Source: Nanobdellota archaeon (GTDB lineage Archaea; Aenigmatarchaeota; Aenigmatarchaeia; Aenigmatarchaeales; Aenigmatarchaeaceae). Taken from it: a stretch of 64,000 nt of DNA. The notes below the pieces were generated by a model. It saw only the letters and a list, made by a program, of their open reading frames with translations, did not search any database and was not told the origin of the DNA. Location: NCBI GenBank assembly GCA_018901755.1, contig JAHIDZ010000015.1:65079-129078 (forward strand). Direction: 5' to 3'. Position numbers and translations under genes: made by a program. This document shows positions 26,978 to 64,000 of this stretch, piece by piece; positions within the stretch are counted from its first letter, which is position 1, and each line of letters starts with the position of its first letter.

Positions 26978-27163
26978 ATGAGTAAAGGAACACCGTCCTT
27001 TGGTAAGCATAATAAGACTAGTCACATTCCTTGTAGAAGATGCGGAATACACGCATACCACGTTAAACATAAGAGATGTGCACACTGTGGGTACCCTGAT
27101 TCTAAAATATATAAATTTAGATGGAATTGGAAAAATATTCTAACCAGAAACAGAAAGAAGTAA
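26978..27163 (+). CDS. rpl37e: 50S ribosomal protein L37e
   Basis: GTPSFGKHNKTSHIPCRRCG...CAHCGYP zinc ribbon typical of L37e. Confidence 0.9.
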   Translation: MSKGTPSFGKHNKTSHIPCRRCGIHAYHVKHKRCAHCGYPDSKIYKFRWNWKNILTRNRKK

Positions 27164-27251
27164 GTTATATAAATATTGTAATAACACTAACTTATTTGCG
27201 AGTAAACTCTACAAATCGAGTCATAATATAATATATGTATTTGAGACATAT

Positions 27252-27992
27252 ATGATACTTTCAATGGAAAGATTTAATGAAAAAATTATTATTGAAAATA
27301 GTATGCAGAGAAAGCTATTTCTAGAAATTAAGAAAATGGAAGGTTTGAGTCAAAGGAAGCTTGCAAAACGGTTAAAAATAAGTCGAAACAGCATTAAAAA
27401 CTGGGCAAGTGAGGATAGAAAATTACCGAAATTTATTTTCGAGGAAATATTAGAAAAGTTTCCATGGGCATCGGAATATAGAAATTATGTACATGGCACC
27501 CTTCCTAGAAACTGGGCTCAGATTAAGGGTGGTAAGATTCGAAGTAAGATGAAGAATAATTTAACAAATGATGATAGAGTAAAGGGATTTAGGCTGGGCA
27601 GATTGGGGATTAAAAGAAAAACAGTTGGGCCAAATGGCGAACTGATGTTTAATGATGGCGAAAAAAGAATTGCTGAGGAGTTGATACGAAATAAAATTAA
27701 CTATGTGTATGAGCCGGTAATTTTACTTGGAGAAAATTATGCTATCCCAGATTTCATTGTGAATAATACTGTTATCGAAAGATGTGGTTATCGCGATTGG
27801 AAGCCGTATTGGTCGAATATTAAGAGAAAGATTAAAAGATTAAAGAAATATGAAAATTATAAAATCATTATTTTAGTCCCATCAAAAAATTTTGATATGG
27901 TAGTTAAAATTTTAAAAAATGTCAGAGGCATCACTATATTGAAGGAAGAAAATTTGGAAGCACTTTTAGATATTTTGAAAATATACCATTGA
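27252..27992 (+). CDS. HTH fused to a PD-(D/E)xK (DUF559/Vsr-like) endonuclease domain; homing-endonuclease-like
   Basis: Its N-terminal HTH (LFLEIKKMEGLSQRKLAKRLKISRNSIKNWASEDRKLPKFIFEEILEKF) aligns with the N-termini of the LAGLIDADG genes in this window. The C-terminus IAEELIRNKINYVYEPVIL...IPDFIV...IERCG resembles the DUF559 nuclease core. Confidence 0.55.
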   Translation: MILSMERFNEKIIIENSMQRKLFLEIKKMEGLSQRKLAKRLKISRNSIKNWASEDRKLPKFIFEEILEKFPWASEYRNYVHGTLPRNWAQIKGGKIRSKMKNNLTNDDRVKGFRLGRLGIKRKTVGPNGELMFNDGEKRIAEELIRNKINYVYEPVILLGENYAIPDFIVNNTVIERCGYRDWKPYWSNIKRKIKRLKKYENYKIIILVPSKNFDMVVKILKNVRGITILKEENLEALLDILKIYH

Positions 27993-28063
27993 TTATTTGT
28001 ATATAGAAAGCAATTTAAATGATAGGATGAAATCTTATTAAAGGGTCTAACCCCCAGGCAACT

Positions 28064-28166
28064 GGGTCCATAAGTTAAATTTTAATTTAACTGGAATGCT
28101 CAGTTTGGCTAGAGCACCTGCCTCTTAAGCAGGGGGTCGCGGGTTCAAATCCCGTTGGACCCACCA
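28064..28166 (+). tRNA. tRNA-Lys (anticodon CUU) with a 25-nt intron between positions 9 and 10; CCA encoded
   Basis: Acceptor GGGUCCA/UGGACCC, D-stem GCUC/GAGC, anticodon arm CCUGC-CUCUUAA-GCAGG and T-arm GCGGG-UUCAAAU-CCCGU. The intron at 28073..28097 (AGUUAAAUUUUAAUUUAACUGGAAU) forms an 8-bp hairpin. Confidence 0.78.
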
Positions 28167-42806: not shown

Positions 42807-43616
42807 TCACCATCTAAATTTTGAAGGTTGCAGTCTGCATATCATTCTTTGTGTATTTACCTTTTTATAATAACATTCATATTCTATATCTTTAAGCGTA
42901 TTATTGTAGAAATCTGTCAGTGATTTATTATGCAAAAGTATCGAAAACTCATTTCTTTTATGATATATGCATAATTTATGTGAATAATTATTTTTTAATA
43001 GTTGAACAATTTGTTTGGCGAGTATTTCGTTTTTTAAAGAAGATGCCACTAAAATATTATCTTTCAATTTAATTTTACCATTGCTTCCTTCATCAATAAA
43101 ACATGCTCTTAAGATGGAGTTTTTCCAGCTTGGATTTTTTAGAGCAAGTGCAATTATTTTTTTAGGAAGTTTCCTTCTTTCAAACCCATAATGATTTATT
43201 AGTAAATTTGATGCTACAGAAGATAGCCCGTATGATTTTACACCGTTTTGATTGCTATGGTATAGAGCGGTGCCCATTCCAATTTTTTTAACTAAATCAG
43301 AAAACATTTCTTGTTCCATGTTGTTGCGCGTTTCATAATAAAAGGAGTTTCCCCTTCCTACGGTGCCATCAAATAAAGTATGTGCTATTATTTCGGCGTG
43401 TTCTGGCATTTCTTTATACGGAAATTTATTAAGTATAAAATTTATTTTCGGGTAGTTAAATATGATTATGTGCGATTCTATAGATTTTTTTGATATTTTA
43501 AGAACGTCAATCCATTTAAGGAATATGTTAATCGTTGGGTGTCTATGACCATTTTCATAGTGAGATATGCGTCCTTTTTTAATTTGTATTAATTTTGCTA
43601 TGGCTTTCTGTGTCAA
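42807..43616 (-). CDS. HTH (XRE-like) fused to a LAGLIDADG homing endonuclease-like domain
   Basis: N-terminal QKAIAKLIQIKKGRISHYENG HTH. LAGLIDADG motifs IIAHTLFDGTVG and LRACFIDEGSNG. Confidence 0.75.
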   Translation of the reverse strand: MTQKAIAKLIQIKKGRISHYENGHRHPTINIFLKWIDVLKISKKSIESHIIIFNYPKINFILNKFPYKEMPEHAEIIAHTLFDGTVGRGNSFYYETRNNMEQEMFSDLVKKIGMGTALYHSNQNGVKSYGLSSVASNLLINHYGFERRKLPKKIIALALKNPSWKNSILRACFIDEGSNGKIKLKDNILVASSLKNEILAKQIVQLLKNNYSHKLCIYHKRNEFSILLHNKSLTDFYNNTLKDIEYECYYKKVNTQRMICRLQPSKFRW

Positions 43617-43740
43617 TTTCAGTTCATTTTTTTTAGAAACCAGAAGTTTTTTAAAATATGGCGTTATTATAACCCTGCTTCGTTGAGAGGCTTCCCACCA
43701 ATGAATTAAATTATTGTTGGTTGGTATTAAATCACCATTA

Positions 43741-43860
43741 TGGTGCGGGAGGCAGGATTTGAACCTGCGAATGAACTAATCAACTGGGTCCTAAGCTTCG
43801 CTCAAGAATAAACGTATTTAATCTTGTCCAGCGCCTTAGACCTAGCTTGGCAACTCCCGC
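43741..43860 (-). tRNA. tRNA-Leu (anticodon UAG) with a 31-nt intron at the anticodon-stem position 30/31 (or 31/32); CCA encoded
   Basis: Minus-strand read GCGGGAG-UU-GCC...GGC-G-CUGG[ACAAGAUUAAAUACGUUUAUUCUUGAGCGAA]G-CUUAGGA-CCCAG-UUGAUUAGUUCAUUC(variable arm)-GCAGG-UUCAAAU-CCUGC-CUCCCGC-A-CCA. Removing the intron gives a perfect CUGGG/CCCAG anticodon stem with G37. The D-arm and long variable arm match archaeal tRNA-Leu. Confidence 0.7.
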
Positions 43861-43904
43861 ATGTAAGATATTATTAAACATATTAGTTTATATAAATTTA
43901 AGAA

Positions 43905-44360
43905 TTAGATGTTTTCTGTCCTATCGCCAATTTCTTTCAATTCACTTTCCATTTGGTTGATATTTCCATCAATTGGTCTACTATTGTCTTTTATGAAAGG
44001 TTCGAACGATTGTGGTCTTACTAGTTCCTGATCTAATTGGTTAAGAAGACCTGAGAATTCGTCAAGATTTTTCTTTTCATTAGCTTCTATTTGTGATGCT
44101 ATTTTTTCGACTTCTCCTTCTAGTCTAGCTAAAGCACTAAGATTACTTAGGATTGTTTTTAATTTTTGAACTCTTTGAAGAACTTCTTTATATTTATCTA
44201 TTTTGATGTATAGTGGAGCGAAGTTTTTAGGTTCTTGCATTGAAGGCATTTCTATTTTTCTAATTTCTGGTATTTCTGTAGGTCTAGTAAATACAGGTTG
44301 GCTTGGTTCCACTGCATCTTTTATTTCTTGCACATCGTCTTTCTTTTTATTCCAAAACAT
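43905..44360 (-). CDS. hypothetical coiled-coil protein
   Basis: ORF only. Confidence 0.45.
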   Translation of the reverse strand: MFWNKKKDDVQEIKDAVEPSQPVFTRPTEIPEIRKIEMPSMQEPKNFAPLYIKIDKYKEVLQRVQKLKTILSNLSALARLEGEVEKIASQIEANEKKNLDEFSGLLNQLDQELVRPQSFEPFIKDNSRPIDGNINQMESELKEIGDRTENI

Positions 44361-44480
44361 TCAATCATCCTTTTAATTTATTCAAACTCAGAGTATTTAA
44401 TGATTATGGTGCACTGTGCGAGATTCACCACCAAGGGTGAAAACGTGCTTTAAACTGAAGCAACAACATTTCATTAATTT

Positions 44481-45224
44481 ATGAATAACATTGATAAAAA
44501 TAAGGTATTACGTCTGTATAAAGATGGGTATACATTAGCACAGATTTCTATAAACACTGGACTAAGTAAAACTACAATTTATTATCATACGCGGAAGCAA
44601 TTTGGGAGAAAATATAAGCTCATAACGATTTCAGATAACAGAGAGAAAATTGGTGAATTCATTGGTGTTTTTACAGGAGACGGGTATTTCATTAAGGATA
44701 AGATAGGACATTACAAAACAATGATAACTGTTTCGATTAAAGCATCTGAATACATAAAGCACTTAGATACGATTTTTACAGAACTGTTTTCTAAATCCCC
44801 ACTTATTATCAAAAGACTTAAATATAATACAGTCGAACTTCGATACGATTCTAAAGAAATATACGAATTGATAAAAAACTATTTGTTTTGGGATGGAAAG
44901 AAACATAACTCAGTTAGACTGCTGGTAATTGAGCACGATAAGGAATTTCTTACAGGATTCTTAAGAGGTTGCCTAGATACAGATGGTCATGTTCATAAGA
45001 ATTATAAAAGAATATGCTTTTCTACCACATCTCTATTTTTGGCGAACCAGCTTTCTTCTATTTTAACTAATCTTGGTTTTGAGAACAAAATTCTAATAGC
45101 AAGAGATAAGAGATTGAATAGAAAATTGTTATATAATGTAAGATTGTTGGGAGAAGAAGCTATTAGATTGATTAAAACAATTAAACCAGGAAATCCTTCA
45201 AAGAGAAGAGATTGGTGCGAGTGA
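44481..45224 (+). CDS. HTH fused to a LAGLIDADG homing endonuclease-like domain
   Basis: N-terminal HTH (YKDGYTLAQISINTGLSKTTIYYHTRKQ). LAGLIDADG motifs IGVFTGDGYF and LRGCLDTDGHV. The last 9 nt overlap the acceptor stem of tRNA-Gly on the opposite strand. Confidence 0.8.
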   Translation: MNNIDKNKVLRLYKDGYTLAQISINTGLSKTTIYYHTRKQFGRKYKLITISDNREKIGEFIGVFTGDGYFIKDKIGHYKTMITVSIKASEYIKHLDTIFTELFSKSPLIIKRLKYNTVELRYDSKEIYELIKNYLFWDGKKHNSVRLLVIEHDKEFLTGFLRGCLDTDGHVHKNYKRICFSTTSLFLANQLSSILTNLGFENKILIARDKRLNRKLLYNVRLLGEEAIRLIKTIKPGNPSKRRDWCE

Positions 45225-45303
45225 GGGGATTTGAACCCCTGTTGTAAACTTTTTGCGAAATTCTTGGCAAGCTTACGTACTGGCCAGACTATACGACACT
45301 CGC
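45213..45303 (-). tRNA. tRNA with a 14-nt intron at the canonical 37/38 position, most likely tRNA-Gly (anticodon GCC); CCA encoded
   Basis: Minus-strand read GCGAGUG-UC-GUAU-AGUCUGGCCA-GUAC-G-UAAGC-UUGCCA[AGAAUUUCGCAAAA]A-GUUUA-CAAC-AGGGG-UUCAAAU-CCCCU-CACUCGC-A-CCA. UUGC of the loop can pair with GCAA in the intron, giving a BHB-like helix flanked by 3-nt bulges. Confidence 0.62.
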
Positions 45304-63282: not shown

Positions 63283-63403
63283 ATTATCTATACTTATACA
63301 AAGGTTTTTAAAATGTAGTTATAGTAATAGTTTGTAAGGGCTCGTCGTATACTATTTCAAAGTATACAACGCATTTATATATTTCGATTGACGTAGTTAT
63401 TTC

Positions 63404-64000
63404 ATGAAAATGTGTAAAACCGATAGATTAATTTTCAAATCTGGAAAACAGAAAATTTTTATAGAAGATGTTAAGAACCAGACAGGTTTATCATGGAAGG
63501 AACTATCTAGTAAAATAAATAAAAGTGAAATAGCATTAAGACATGAATTAAGGAATGAAAAATATAACATATCATATTCCGATTTTATGAAATTGTGCGA
63601 TATTTGTAAGTGCCCTAAAAAATTGTATACAAGATATATTCTAAGAATAGAAGATAAAAATTGGGGTCAGAAAAAAGGCGGTCGAATTGGCGGGTTATCA
63701 AAAAAACACAATATGCCAAGAATCATTATAAATAAACCTAAACATTCTGAAAAACTTGCTGAGTTTGTTGGCATAATGCTTGGTGATGGAAGTATTAGCA
63801 AAACGAATTATACTATTGATATAACTCTTAACAGATTTATTGAGAAGCATTATTCAAAATATGTTTCTAATTTGATACGTGAACTTTTTAAGATAAATCC
63901 TCACATTTTTTATCCTAGGAATAAGAATACGATTCAGATTAGAGTAAATTCGTTAGAATTATTTAATTTTTTGAATGAAATTGGATTGGTAACTGGAACG
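63404..64000 (+). CDS. HTH fused to a LAGLIDADG homing endonuclease-like domain, truncated by the window end
   Basis: Its N-terminal region aligns with the other members (KQKIFIEDVKNQTGLSWKELSSKINKSEIALRHEL). First LAGLIDADG motif FVGIMLGDGSI. Confidence 0.72.
   Translation, partial: MKMCKTDRLIFKSGKQKIFIEDVKNQTGLSWKELSSKINKSEIALRHELRNEKYNISYSDFMKLCDICKCPKKLYTRYILRIEDKNWGQKKGGRIGGLSKKHNMPRIIINKPKHSEKLAEFVGIMLGDGSISKTNYTIDITLNRFIEKHYSKYVSNLIRELFKINPHIFYPRNKNTIQIRVNSLELFNFLNEIGLVTGT

What the first reader, a model, noticed from the sequence alone, without database searches (positions are those of the whole stretch)
27252..28166. HTH plus PD-(D/E)xK (DUF559/Vsr-like) endonuclease immediately upstream of tRNA-Lys with a D-arm intron
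This 246-aa protein has the same N-terminal HTH module as the LAGLIDADG family but a different nuclease core (YEPVIL...IPDFIV...IERCG). It ends 72 nt before tRNA-Lys(CUU), whose 25-nt intron lies at the unusual 9/10 position. It is a third case of an endonuclease beside an intron-bearing tRNA. The module swap (HTH plus a different nuclease) suggests the HTH supplies targeting and the nuclease core is exchangeable.
Basis: partly seen in the sequence, partly recalled or inferred. Interest (0 to 1): 0.55.

Follow-up and report, generated by a model that had tools for sequence, protein, structure and literature searches.

The report
Mobile nuclease gene inside archaeal tRNA-Lys
A DNA-binding nuclease gene and a short spliceable intron form an optional, apparently mobile insertion in the lysine tRNA gene of tiny DPANN archaea, which offers a testable candidate for how archaeal tRNA introns spread.

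Summary
ORF 27252/27264-27992 encodes an Xre-type HTH followed by a confidently modelled restriction-endonuclease-like (PD-(D/E)xK) domain. It ends 71 nt before tRNA-Lys(CUU), which has a 25-nt intron at 9/10 in a textbook bulge-helix-bulge (BHB) motif.

Comparative data add more. In 36 distinct related loci anchored on ribosomal protein S8e, all 29 tRNA-Lys genes with no nuclease ORF and no 8/9-9/10 intron sit directly after L37e. Every locus with the ORF has that intron (Fisher p = 5.6e-5). Filled and empty sites occur in hosts whose marker proteins are 95-99% identical. ORF and host similarities disagree.

At the same site one relative carries a LAGLIDADG nuclease fused to the same ~95-aa N-terminal module. 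Distant family members sit before intron-bearing tRNA-iMet and tRNA-Pro genes and inside a 16S rRNA insertion.

Most filled alleles outside this window keep an ~11-nt stub of the old tRNA 5' end upstream of the ORF. All carry a second copy of the 5' acceptor strand just upstream of the tRNA. In folding models this copy frees the true strand to form the BHB.

Best reading: a homing-endonuclease-like selfish element whose intron protects its own target. Nuclease activity and homing are inferred, not shown. A specific DUF559/Vsr assignment is not supported.

The parts
27165..27173 (+). TATA-like box (TTATATAAA) directly after the L37e stop codon (27161-27163). It corresponds to the promoter that drives tRNA-Lys in ORF-less relatives. 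Here it lies upstream of the nuclease ORF.
   Evidence: Read. Compared with 33 intron-less loci in which TTTATAAA lies about 24 nt before tRNA +1. Promoter function is inferred.
27264..27992 (+). Nuclease ORF, 242 aa from MERFN (an upstream in-frame ATG at 27252 gives 246 aa). The end coordinate includes the stop codon.
   Evidence: 35 homologues at 33-100% identity; the NCBI copy is 242 aa.
27264..27542 (+). N-terminal DNA-binding module of about 95 aa, with an Xre-type HTH at 27318-27455 and ending in the NWxQIKGGK motif. The module is shared with a LAGLIDADG family.
   Evidence: Pfam HTH_3 and HTH_19. L052 LAGLIDADG protein is 39% identical over 93 aa. LAGLIDADG proteins match profile positions 6 to about 100.
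27624..27989 (+). PD-(D/E)xK (restriction-endonuclease-like) domain. Candidate catalytic residues are E137 (27660-27662), D167 (27750-27752) and E176 (27777-27779). The canonical Lys of ExK is Cys178.
28014..28020 (+). Second TATA-like box (within AAAGCAATTTAAAT), 29 nt before the upstream acceptor copy.
   Evidence: Read. The same box is seen in L005, L062 and L052. Promoter function is inferred.
28043..28049 (+). 'U': an extra copy of the 7-nt 5' acceptor strand (GGGTCTA), 14 nt upstream of tRNA +1. It can pair with the 3' acceptor strand.
   Evidence: Present in all intron-bearing tRNA-Lys genes and in none of 33 intron-less ones. In folding models it pairs with the 3' acceptor strand.
28064..28072 (+). 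tRNA-Lys(CUU) exon 1 (positions 1-9, GGGTCCATA).
28073..28097 (+). 25-nt BHB intron at position 9/10. It forms a hairpin (GUUAAAU/AUUUAAC), then UGGA that pairs with exon positions 4-7, then AU.
   Evidence: BHB geometry and the compensatory changes of the central helix across 19 loci.
28098..28166 (+). tRNA-Lys(CUU) exon 2 (positions 10-73) plus an encoded CCA. The anticodon CTT is at 28124-28126.
   Evidence: Rfam tRNA 43.2 bits, model positions 10-63. nhmmer match to spliced tRNA-Lys positions 10-74.

Best explanation
The ORF is the nuclease gene of a selfish, homing-type element that lives in the 5' part of the tRNA-Lys gene.

Composition of the element:
- the endonuclease gene: a roughly 95-aa HTH-containing DNA-binding module, a basic linker, and a PD-(D/E)xK catalytic domain
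- a replacement copy of the tRNA 5' exon
- a short BHB intron at position 9/10 (8/9 in a sister lineage)

Proposed mechanism (inferred):
1. The protein recognises the uninterrupted tRNA-Lys gene around positions 8-12 and cuts it.
2. The break is repaired from an element-bearing allele. This copies in the nuclease gene, the new 5' exon and the intron.
3. The intron splits the recognition sequence and so protects the carrier. This is the logic of 'collaborative homing' between a free-standing endonuclease and an intron, and of the yeast WHO elements that replace one end of their target gene.
4. The host splicing endonuclease and ligase remove the intron, so the tRNA stays functional.

The extra upstream copy of the acceptor strand (U) probably pairs with the 3' acceptor strand in the precursor. 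That would leave the true 5' strand free to build the BHB.

Shown here: the fold, the conserved acidic residues, the BHB with covariation, the strict ORF-intron coupling, filled and empty sites in near-identical hosts, discordant phylogeny, and nuclease-domain replacement at the same site.

Inferred: DNA cleavage, the target site, homing itself, and the role of U.

For: 2. Optional insertion at a fixed site. In S8e-anchored loci, 29 distinct ORF-less loci have tRNA-Lys directly after L37e with no 8/9-9/10 intron. Five loci with a nuclease ORF all have the intron, and two have the intron only. Fisher p = 5.6e-5.

3. Recent gain or loss. Filled and empty pairs have 99.2% (L067/L065), 95.0% (L048/L056) and 94.6% (L062/L058) identical host marker proteins.

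4. Horizontal signal. Hosts L003 and L062 are 84% identical but their ORFs only 51%. Hosts L001 and L062 are 50% identical but their ORFs 60%.

5. Same site, different nuclease. L052 carries the shared N-terminal module fused to LAGLIDADG_3.

6. Generality. Remote relatives (25-33% identity) precede tRNA-iMet genes with 9/10 BHB introns in Micrarchaeota. P0036 precedes an intron-bearing tRNA-Pro. P0105 lies in an insertion in a 16S rRNA gene.

7. Stub. Filled alleles keep GGGYYCATAGC, the old tRNA positions 1-11, right after the old promoter and upstream of the ORF. L015 keeps an 18-nt iMet stub. This mirrors the target-gene fragments of WHO elements (PMC7282813).

8. BHB. Every locus shows the 3-4-3 geometry with compensatory central-helix changes, and splicing restores U8-A9-G10.

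9. U. None of 33 intron-less genes has it, and all intron-bearing genes do. In partition-function folding, without the U leader the 5' acceptor strand pairs with the 3' strand at P = 0.78-0.97 (0.95-0.97 in 8 of 10 loci) and the BHB central helix is at about 0 in 9 of 10 loci (0.13 in L003). With U, the central helix rises to 0.7-1.0 in 7 of 10 loci.
Against: - No biochemical evidence exists for cleavage or homing.
- The canonical Lys of the ExK motif is Cys or Thr in this family. The catalytic arrangement is therefore non-standard and activity is not guaranteed.
- No sequence profile places the domain in a characterised nuclease family.
- The window's own copy has no recognisable stub upstream of the ORF. 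This particular element may be old or immobile.
- In one host clade (L001, L006, L007, L008, L010) all sampled loci carry the ORF. Those loci were found through the ORF, so this is uninformative, but it is compatible with long vertical retention.
- Precise loss rather than gain could produce some of the empty sites.
- The U effect on folding fails in 3 of 10 loci (L005, L067, L047) and rests on thermodynamic prediction only.
- One remote relative (Thaumarchaeota, L012) and P0046 (L077) have no detectable tRNA next to them.
Confidence: 0.7

Rival explanations
1. The element was once mobile, but the protein in this window is now a domesticated or decaying DNA-binding protein. It might act as a repressor of the adjacent promoters or have no nuclease activity. 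The arrangement would then be inherited vertically.
For: The ExK lysine is replaced by Cys. The window lacks the upstream stub seen in most relatives. Synteny S8e-LSm-L37e-ORF-tRNA is stable across relatives with 45-70% identical ORFs. An Xre-type HTH is typical of repressors.
Against: The ORF is intact. D167, E137 and E176 are conserved across very distant relatives. That is not expected for a protein that only binds DNA. Filled/empty polymorphism between 95-99% identical hosts and the ORF-host discordance indicate ongoing turnover in the family.
Confidence: 0.12
2. The protein is an RNA-processing nuclease for its own transcript. It would separate the mRNA from the tRNA or remove the U-containing 5' leader, possibly in an organism with reduced RNase P function.
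Against: A trans-acting processing factor need not be encoded next to each substrate and would not be optional. L047 and L055 have intron plus U but no ORF at the site. A LAGLIDADG domain, a DNA endonuclease family, substitutes at the same site. The HTH suggests duplex DNA binding.
Confidence: 0.08
3. It is an unrelated accessory gene, such as a restriction-like, toxin-antitoxin or defence gene, that merely landed in a tRNA-adjacent recombination hot spot.
For: The region 3' of tRNA-Lys is highly variable between relatives. HTH-nuclease fusions occur in defence contexts.
Against: The ORF is strictly coupled to an intron at one position and to duplicated 5'-exon fragments. The coupling recurs with other tRNAs and in a 16S rRNA insertion. 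No partner genes are present. No relatives were found in IMG/VR.
Confidence: 0.04
4. It is a remnant of an integrase-mediated integrative element that targeted the tRNA gene and duplicated part of it as an attachment site.
For: Partial tRNA duplications flanking inserted DNA are typical of tRNA-targeting integrative elements. Here the stub and U are partial 5' copies.
Against: The insertion is only about 0.9 kb and holds one gene. No integrase is present at any of more than 12 loci. The repeats are 7-11 nt at the 5' end. The insertion is always accompanied by a BHB intron.
Confidence: 0.03

Closest known systems
I-Bth0305I (EDxHD / Vsr-like homing endonuclease family; PDB 3r3p)
   Different: There is no detectable sequence-profile relationship. 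The conserved residues here are E...D...ExC/T rather than EDxHD. I-Bth0305I is encoded inside a phage group I intron, whereas this gene is associated with an archaeal protein-spliced BHB intron in a tRNA gene.
I-Ssp6803I (PD-(D/E)xK homing endonuclease in the group I intron of cyanobacterial tRNA-fMet; Zhao et al. 2007, cited in PMC6083498; details from my own knowledge)
   Same: A restriction-fold homing endonuclease whose target is a tRNA gene.
   Different: It is bacterial and encoded within a self-splicing intron in the anticodon loop. It is a small tetrameric enzyme without an HTH module. It did not appear among the top structural matches.
F-CphI and the psbA intron of cyanophages ('collaborative homing'; PMC6083498)
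   Same: The endonuclease gene lies beside, not inside, a short ORF-less intron. The intron interrupts the enzyme's target and protects the carrier, and the two move together.
   Different: That system is a phage with a group I intron and an Endo VII-type nuclease. Here the host is an archaeal chromosome, the intron is a BHB intron, the nuclease is PD-(D/E)xK or LAGLIDADG, and 5'-exon fragments are also duplicated.
WHO elements of Torulaspora/Lachancea yeasts (PMC7282813)
   Same: The endonuclease gene sits between a fragment of the target gene and a full-length, resistant copy whose end was replaced on integration. Successive events leave target-gene fragments behind.
   Different: WHO replaces the 3' end of a protein gene, and resistance comes from sequence divergence. 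Here the 5' end of a tRNA gene is replaced and resistance would come from an intron. The fragments are only 7-18 nt. There is no evidence yet for allele-specific cleavage.
LAGLIDADG homing endonucleases in archaeal rRNA BHB introns (e.g. I-DmoI; my own knowledge; see also PMC4496867)
   Same: An archaeal BHB intron associated with a homing endonuclease gene. One family member (P0105) lies in a 16S rRNA insertion, and a LAGLIDADG version exists at the tRNA-Lys site.
   Different: The known cases are in rRNA genes with the ORF inside the intron. Here the host gene is a tRNA. The spliced intron is only 18-34 nt and the ORF lies upstream of a duplicated exon 1.
Bax1 (DUF790), the archaeal XPB-associated nuclease
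   Different: Bax1 is larger (about 375-480 aa) and works with the XPB helicase in repair. No XPB is nearby, and the domain architecture and genomic context differ.

Membership tests
PD-(D/E)xK (restriction-endonuclease-like) superfamily | Alpha-beta-beta-beta-alpha-beta core fold. | tested here: met
PD-(D/E)xK (restriction-endonuclease-like) superfamily | Acidic residues at the start of strand 2 (PD) and in strand 3 (D/E), plus a Glu in helix 1. | tested here: met
   P166-D167-F168 is invariant in the close family (A2). D167 is also invariant across distant relatives, where F168 is nearly so. E176 and E137 are at least 90% conserved in 56 distant relatives.
PD-(D/E)xK (restriction-endonuclease-like) superfamily | Lysine two residues after the strand-3 acidic residue (ExK). 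| tested here: not met
   The motif is E176-R177-C178 here and E-x-T/C in relatives. A conserved Lys follows in the next helix (consensus of A3). Whether it substitutes was not tested.
Vsr / DUF559 | Match to the family sequence profiles. | tested here: not met
   No DUF559 or Vsr hit at E up to 10 for the protein, nor at E up to 0.05 among the 25 most frequently matched of 35 families for 56 relatives.
Vsr / DUF559 | Structural similarity to Vsr and DUF559-like structures. | tested here: met
DUF790 / Bax1 | Match to the Pfam DUF790 profile above its cut-off. | tested here: inconclusive
Homing endonuclease genes (functional class) | The gene lies in or next to an intervening sequence in a conserved host gene. 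| tested here: met
   Family members also occur at tRNA-iMet, tRNA-Pro and 16S rRNA.
Homing endonuclease genes (functional class) | Presence/absence polymorphism at the same site in close relatives, and a phylogeny discordant with the host. | tested here: met
   Filled and empty pairs with 95-99% identical host markers. Patchy NJ tree. ORF and host identities disagree.
Homing endonuclease genes (functional class) | Site-specific cleavage of the empty allele and gene conversion. | not testable with these tools
   Needs protein expression and cleavage or homing assays.
Archaeal BHB (bulge-helix-bulge) intron | Two 3-nt bulges separated by a 4-bp helix, with splice sites after the second bulge nucleotide. 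Splicing restores a canonical tRNA. | tested here: met
   Window: UCCA/UGGA, UA|A, AU|G, h' 7 bp, giving GGGTCCATA^GCTCAG. The same geometry holds in 19 loci with compensatory central-helix changes.
Archaeal BHB (bulge-helix-bulge) intron | Cleavage by the splicing endonuclease EndA and ligation in vivo. | not testable with these tools
   No transcript data are available.
LAGLIDADG homing endonucleases | LAGLIDADG domain. | tested here: not met
   No LAGLIDADG hit for this ORF. Only the N-terminal module is shared with LAGLIDADG proteins.
WHO-like 'target-end replacement' homing elements | The endonuclease gene is flanked by a fragment of the target gene on one side and a full-length resistant copy on the other. 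| tested here: inconclusive
   Met in relatives: stub GGGYYCATAGC upstream of the ORF in L001, L005, L007, L011, L062, L067 and L052, and an 18-nt stub in L015. The window itself has no recognisable stub. Resistance of the intron-bearing copy was not tested.

The most novel reading that the evidence does not exclude
Archaeal tRNA BHB introns can be mobilised at the DNA level by neighbouring endonuclease genes through a WHO-like mechanism. Each invasion would replace the 5' end of the tRNA gene, and the old 5' end would remain as a stub. The element would also supply a leader-encoded mimic of the acceptor strand (U). U would act as an RNA switch that sequesters the 3' acceptor strand so that an acceptor-proximal intron can form its BHB and be spliced. 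This would be a first mechanism for archaeal tRNA-intron spread and a new kind of cis-acting splicing helper.
Probability: 0.35. Interest if true: 0.85.

Novelty: new variant of a known kind. Interest (0 to 1): 0.72.

Why it matters
Archaeal tRNA introns occur at many non-canonical positions and have clearly moved between genes. [quoted passage not shown] In the papers searched here, homing endonucleases came up for archaeal rRNA introns and bacterial group I introns. None was described for archaeal protein-spliced tRNA introns.

This locus and its relatives provide the following:
- a natural filled/empty series at one chromosomal site
- two interchangeable nuclease domains on a common DNA-binding module
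- predicted target, immunity (intron) and processing (U) elements, all short enough to synthesise

Together these make the question directly testable.

The work also defines an uncharacterised HTH-PD-(D/E)xK family. A profile search returned 1059 proteins at E up to 1e-3. That number includes matches to the HTH or N-terminal module alone. Public databases currently label these proteins only as 'helix-turn-helix domain-containing'.

Practically, tRNA genes with introns at 4/5, 8/9 or 9/10 are missed by standard tRNA finders (ARAGORN; only partial Rfam hits). DPANN genomes may therefore appear to lack tRNA-Lys.

Tried and rejected
- Sequence profiles for the C-terminal half (Pfam, NCBIfam, PDB phmmer and hmmsearch) gave only HTH hits.
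- The afdb50 fold library was unavailable.
- IMG/VR holds no relative.
- The two HTH/LAGLIDADG ORFs beside the other intron-bearing tRNAs in the window (42810-43616, 44481-45221) were tested as carriers of the same N-terminal module. They are not (BLASTP E 0.029 and no match; no HMM hit).
- U as the true exon 1 was rejected. Splicing from U would give A8/C9 (window) or G8/G9 (L001) instead of U8-A9. Only the proximal copy gives a 3-4-3 BHB (and direct reading).
- The upstream stub as exon 1 of a roughly 1-kb ORF-containing BHB intron was considered unlikely. No h' helix can form next to the stub, but this is not excluded for broad-specificity splicing endonucleases.
- Comparison of the DNA 3' of the tRNA between filled and empty loci was uninformative, because that region is variable in all relatives.
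- The Thaumarchaeota relative (L012) and P0046 (L077) show no adjacent tRNA.
- Sigma-70 promoter scanning was not used because the organism is an archaeon. Promoter statements rest on reading TATA-like boxes and their constant spacing.
Full report
**1. What is at the coordinates**

The + strand carries an ORF at 27252..27992 (246 aa). The alignment with 33 homologues and the identical 242-aa NCBI protein place the likely start at 27264 (MERFN...). That NCBI protein is annotated 'helix-turn-helix domain-containing protein [Nanoarchaeota archaeon]'.

Pfam finds only an Xre-type HTH (HTH_3, E = 1.2e-5, above the curated cut-off; residues 27-68). NCBIfam and PDB sequence searches add nothing for the C-terminal half.

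ARAGORN does not see the tRNA downstream of the ORF. Rfam matches it only from model position 10 onward (28098-28155, 43.2 bits). Reading the sequence gives:
- exon 1 GGGTCCATA at 28064-28072
- a 25-nt insert at 28073-28097
- exon 2 from G10 (28098) to the discriminator at 28163, plus an encoded CCA
- anticodon CTT at 28124-28126

The ORF stop and tRNA +1 are 71 nt apart.

**2. The intron is a genuine BHB intron**

A search for the 3-nt bulge, 4-bp helix, 3-nt bulge geometry gives the following for the window: central helix UCCA (tRNA 4-7) / UGGA, 5' bulge UA|A, 3' bulge AU|G, an intron-internal helix of 7 bp and an outer helix. Splicing yields GGGTCCATA^GCTCAG, that is U8-A9-G10.

The same geometry is found in all 16 related tRNA-Lys genes and in three tRNA-iMet genes. 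The central helix changes in a compensatory way:
- 9/10 register: UCCA/UGGA, CUCA/UGAG, CUCG/CGAG, CCUG/CAGG
- 8/9 register: GCCC/GGGU, GCCC/GGGC, GUCC/GGAU, GCUC/GAGC
- tRNA-iMet genes: GGGG/CCCU, GAGG/CCUU

There are two registers, 9/10 (the window and its closest relatives) and 8/9. The 8/9 register lacks the outer helix and is therefore a relaxed motif.

**3. The protein**

An AlphaFold2 model built on the 34-sequence alignment is confident (mean pLDDT 87.8). It has an N-terminal helical HTH domain, a basic helical linker and a C-terminal alpha/beta domain.

In an alignment of 56 relatives at 20-45% identity, D167 is invariant. N134, E137, Y153, E154, F168 and E176 are at least 90% conserved. 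These fall where the fold places its metal-binding residues: helix 1, the start of strand 2, and strand 3.

The lysine of the classical ExK motif is absent (E-R-C here, E-x-T/C in relatives).

Sub-threshold profile hits among relatives go to Phage_endo_I (9 of 56), DUF790/Bax1 (5 of 56) and EcoRII-C (1). PHROG 'endonuclease' and 'Holliday junction resolvase' families also give weak hits. None of the families listed was DUF559 or Vsr.

The conclusion is that this is a PD-(D/E)xK-fold domain with an intact acidic core, in a family of its own. The specific DUF559/Vsr label is not supported.

**4. The gene-tRNA linkage is conserved**

In every locus recovered through close homologues (L001-L011), the ORF is followed at once by tRNA-Lys with an 8/9 or 9/10 intron. 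The tRNA is Lys(CUU) except in L008/L009 and L010, where it is Lys(UUU). The arrangement lies in the neighbourhood S8e - LSm - (L37e) - ... - ORF - tRNA. In several loci other genes lie between L37e and the ORF.

In several loci the ORF reads through the start of the tRNA and stops inside the intron. This explains the odd C-terminal extensions ('GPITT...') seen in the protein alignment.

**5. The element is optional**

A scan anchored on the S8e protein, which is independent of the ORF, returned 59 loci. I scored each for the ORF (HMM of the family) and for tRNA-Lys (nhmmer with spliced tRNA-Lys). After de-duplication the counts are:

| State | Distinct loci |
|---|---|
| No ORF, tRNA-Lys directly after L37e, contiguous from position 1 | 29 |
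| Nuclease ORF plus 8/9-9/10 intron | 5 |
| Intron but no ORF (L047, L055) | 2 |
| ORF without the intron | 0 |

Fisher's exact test gives p = 5.6e-5.

On a neighbour-joining tree of S8e+LSm+L37e, the ORF-bearing loci are scattered among ORF-less sisters. Host-marker protein identity between filled and empty pairs is 99.2% (L067/L065), 95.0% (L048/L056) and 94.6% (L062/L058).

ORF and host similarities disagree. Hosts L003 and L062 are 84% identical but their ORFs are 51% identical and belong to the 8/9 and 9/10 types respectively. Hosts L001 and L062 are 50% identical but their ORFs are 60% identical.

These are the standard signatures of a selfish element that is repeatedly gained and lost.

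**6. Same site, exchangeable nuclease**

In L052 the site between L37e and the 9/10-intron tRNA-Lys holds a 390-aa protein with a LAGLIDADG_3 domain. Its first 93 residues are 39% identical and colinear with this ORF (E = 8e-17).

A profile search of 1.8 billion representative proteins gave 1059 hits at E up to 1e-3. These include many 250-270-aa full-length relatives. A second group of 320-390-aa proteins matches only profile positions 6 to about 100-130, at E of 1e-16 to 1e-19. The four of that group that were tested carry LAGLIDADG_3, two above the curated cut-off and two just below it.

The window contains one such paralogue at 63392-64000, cut off by the window end (HMM E = 3e-12; LAGLIDADG_2).

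It does not apply to the HTH/LAGLIDADG ORFs at 42.8-45.2 kb, which do not share the module.

**7. Generality beyond tRNA-Lys**

- Remote relatives (25-33% identity) in Micrarchaeota genomes are each followed by tRNA-iMet with a 24-34-nt BHB intron at 9/10.
- P0036 is followed by a tRNA-Pro whose 19-nt BHB intron lies at 4/5.
- The LAGLIDADG-type P0060 precedes tRNA-Ile with a D-loop intron.
- P0105 lies within a roughly 1.2-kb insertion in a 16S rRNA gene, just 5' of GCCGCGGTAA.
- Two relatives show no adjacent tRNA (L012, L077).
- No relative was found in IMG/VR.

**8. Duplicated 5'-exon fragments**

Aligning filled L067 with empty L065 shows near-identity through L37e, the promoter and the first 11 nt of the tRNA (GGGTCCATAGC). 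After that point the filled allele continues with ATGATTTATT... and the ORF.

The same stub-plus-junction, GGGYYCATAGC|ATGATT, precedes the ORF in L001, L005, L007, L011 and L062. L052 carries the stub (GGGTACATAGC) followed by a different sequence. The stub is shortened in L003, L035 and L048. In L008, L010 and the 'MGPQHA...' subgroup it has become the first codons of the ORF. A Micrarchaeota locus (L015) keeps an 18-nt tRNA-iMet stub after a TATA-like box. The window itself has no recognisable stub.

A further copy of the 7-nt 5' acceptor strand, which I call U, lies 0-15 nt upstream of the functional exon 1 in every intron-bearing tRNA-Lys. It is absent from all 33 intron-less genes. U tracks the lineage-specific acceptor sequence and almost always keeps the ability to pair with the 3' acceptor strand.

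Where a spacer exists, U lies 22-29 nt after a TATA-like box, which is the position held by tRNA +1 in empty alleles (read). L047 and L055 look like the product of ORF deletion between the stub and U.

The layout [promoter - target-gene fragment - endonuclease gene - full-length, interrupted target gene] mirrors the yeast WHO elements. Those elements replace one end of FBA1 at each integration and leave fragments behind (PMC7282813).

**9. A possible role for U**

In minimum-free-energy folds of all nine precursors examined, U pairs with the 3' acceptor strand and the true 5' strand pairs with the 3' part of the intron. Partition-function calculations on ten loci give:

| Construct | P(5' strand : 3' acceptor strand) | P(U : 3' acceptor strand) | P(BHB central helix) |
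|---|---|---|---|
| No U leader | 0.78-0.97 (0.95-0.97 in 8 of 10) | not applicable | about 0 in 9 of 10 (0.13 in L003) |
| With U | about 0 | 0.82-0.99 | 0.72-1.00 in 7 of 10 |

With U, the window's central-helix probability is 0.78. L005, L067 and L047 do not respond. Shuffled U gives intermediate values.

An intron whose BHB must use the 5' acceptor strand competes with the acceptor stem. A leader-encoded decoy for the 3' strand would resolve that conflict. This is an inference from thermodynamic models. The alternative is that U is only a fossil of an earlier invasion. A U-like copy also accompanies the 4/5 intron of tRNA-Pro in L076.

**10. Mechanism and status**

The best-supported reading (confidence about 0.7) is a homing-type element. 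The protein would cut the uninterrupted tRNA-Lys gene near the intron insertion site. The stub end-point suggests positions 9-12. Repair would copy in the ORF, a new 5' exon and the intron. The intron would protect the carrier's own gene, as in 'collaborative homing' of F-CphI and the psbA intron (PMC6083498). The host splicing machinery would then restore the tRNA.

Cleavage, target and homing are untested. The missing ExK lysine and the missing stub in this window leave room for an inactive or domesticated copy.

**11. Literature and novelty**

I found no description of homing endonuclease genes associated with archaeal tRNA BHB introns. A review states that the mechanism of archaeal tRNA intron transposition is unknown (PMC4090602).

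The kind of element is known: homing endonuclease plus intron, collaborative homing, and WHO-like end replacement. The nuclease family, the host (a protein-spliced tRNA intron), the 5'-exon fragments and the possible acceptor mimic are new variants of it.

Noticed in passing
window 63338-64000: A TATA-like box and a tRNA-5'-end-like GGGCTCGT precede an ORF (63392 to the window end). The ORF has the same N-terminal module (profile E = 3e-12; 26% identity) fused to a LAGLIDADG_2 domain. It is probably a second element of the same kind whose tRNA lies beyond the window.
   Followed up: partly
window 42807-45303: Two more intron-bearing tRNAs lie on the minus strand (43744-43860, and tRNA-Trp at 45216-45303). 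They are flanked by an HTH_3 ORF (42810-43616) and an HTH_7+LAGLIDADG_3 ORF (44481-45221). These ORFs do not share the N-terminal module of the target ORF.
   Followed up: partly
L008/L009 5762-6368; L010 5600-6236: These loci have two tRNA-Lys genes. Lys(UUU) lies right after the ORF and Lys(CUU) about 450 nt further on, after a DUF5654 gene. Both have an upstream acceptor copy and an acceptor-proximal BHB intron (9/10 and 8/9 respectively). Only the first has an adjacent ORF.
   Followed up: partly
L076 560-1560: Family member P0036 is followed by tRNA-Pro(UGG) with a 19-nt BHB intron at 4/5 in the acceptor stem. A U-like copy (GGGGAGG) lies 8 nt upstream of exon 1, and a stub-like GGGGATTCAGCATAGCTT lies upstream of the ORF.
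   Followed up: partly
L078 719-2746: Family member P0105 (HTH_3 plus the same nuclease domain) lies in a roughly 1.2-kb insertion that splits a 16S rRNA gene just 5' of GCCGCGGTAA. A second small ORF (1191-1415) lies in the same insertion.
   Followed up: partly
L079 1501-2640: The LAGLIDADG protein P0060, which carries the shared module, is followed by tRNA-Ile(GAU) with a 26-nt BHB intron in the D-loop (15/16).
   Followed up: partly
L001, L003, L006, L007, L011 (ORF 3' ends, e.g. L001 5700-5760): The nuclease ORF reads through the upstream acceptor copy and tRNA exon 1 and stops inside the intron. 5' processing of the tRNA would therefore remove the mRNA's stop codon. This implies co-transcription and possible coupling of tRNA maturation with nuclease expression.
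   Followed up: no
about 5-40 nt 3' of tRNA-Lys in L003, L047, L048, L056, L058, L062, L065: A conserved motif, TTCTTCA...TTCAACGGGATGA(G/T), lies immediately downstream of the tRNA. It resembles a C box (RUGAUGA) and could belong to a small RNA or a terminator. The window lacks it.
   Followed up: no
L022, L028, L037, L058, L038, L030, L024 (tRNA-Lys genes): tRNA-Lys genes without the 8/9-9/10 intron often carry other short introns, in the D-arm or D-loop, the anticodon stem, and in L024 also the T-loop. Intron turnover in this one gene is very high.
   Followed up: no
L008/L009 1-2269: The eRF1 gene upstream contains an intein with a LAGLIDADG domain, which is another selfish element in the same neighbourhood. 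L010 2503-2574 holds a fluoride riboswitch.
   Followed up: no
window 28064-28166: Standard tRNA finders fail on this gene. ARAGORN finds nothing and Rfam aligns only positions 10-63. Genome annotations of these archaea may therefore wrongly lack tRNA-Lys(CUU).
   Followed up: yes
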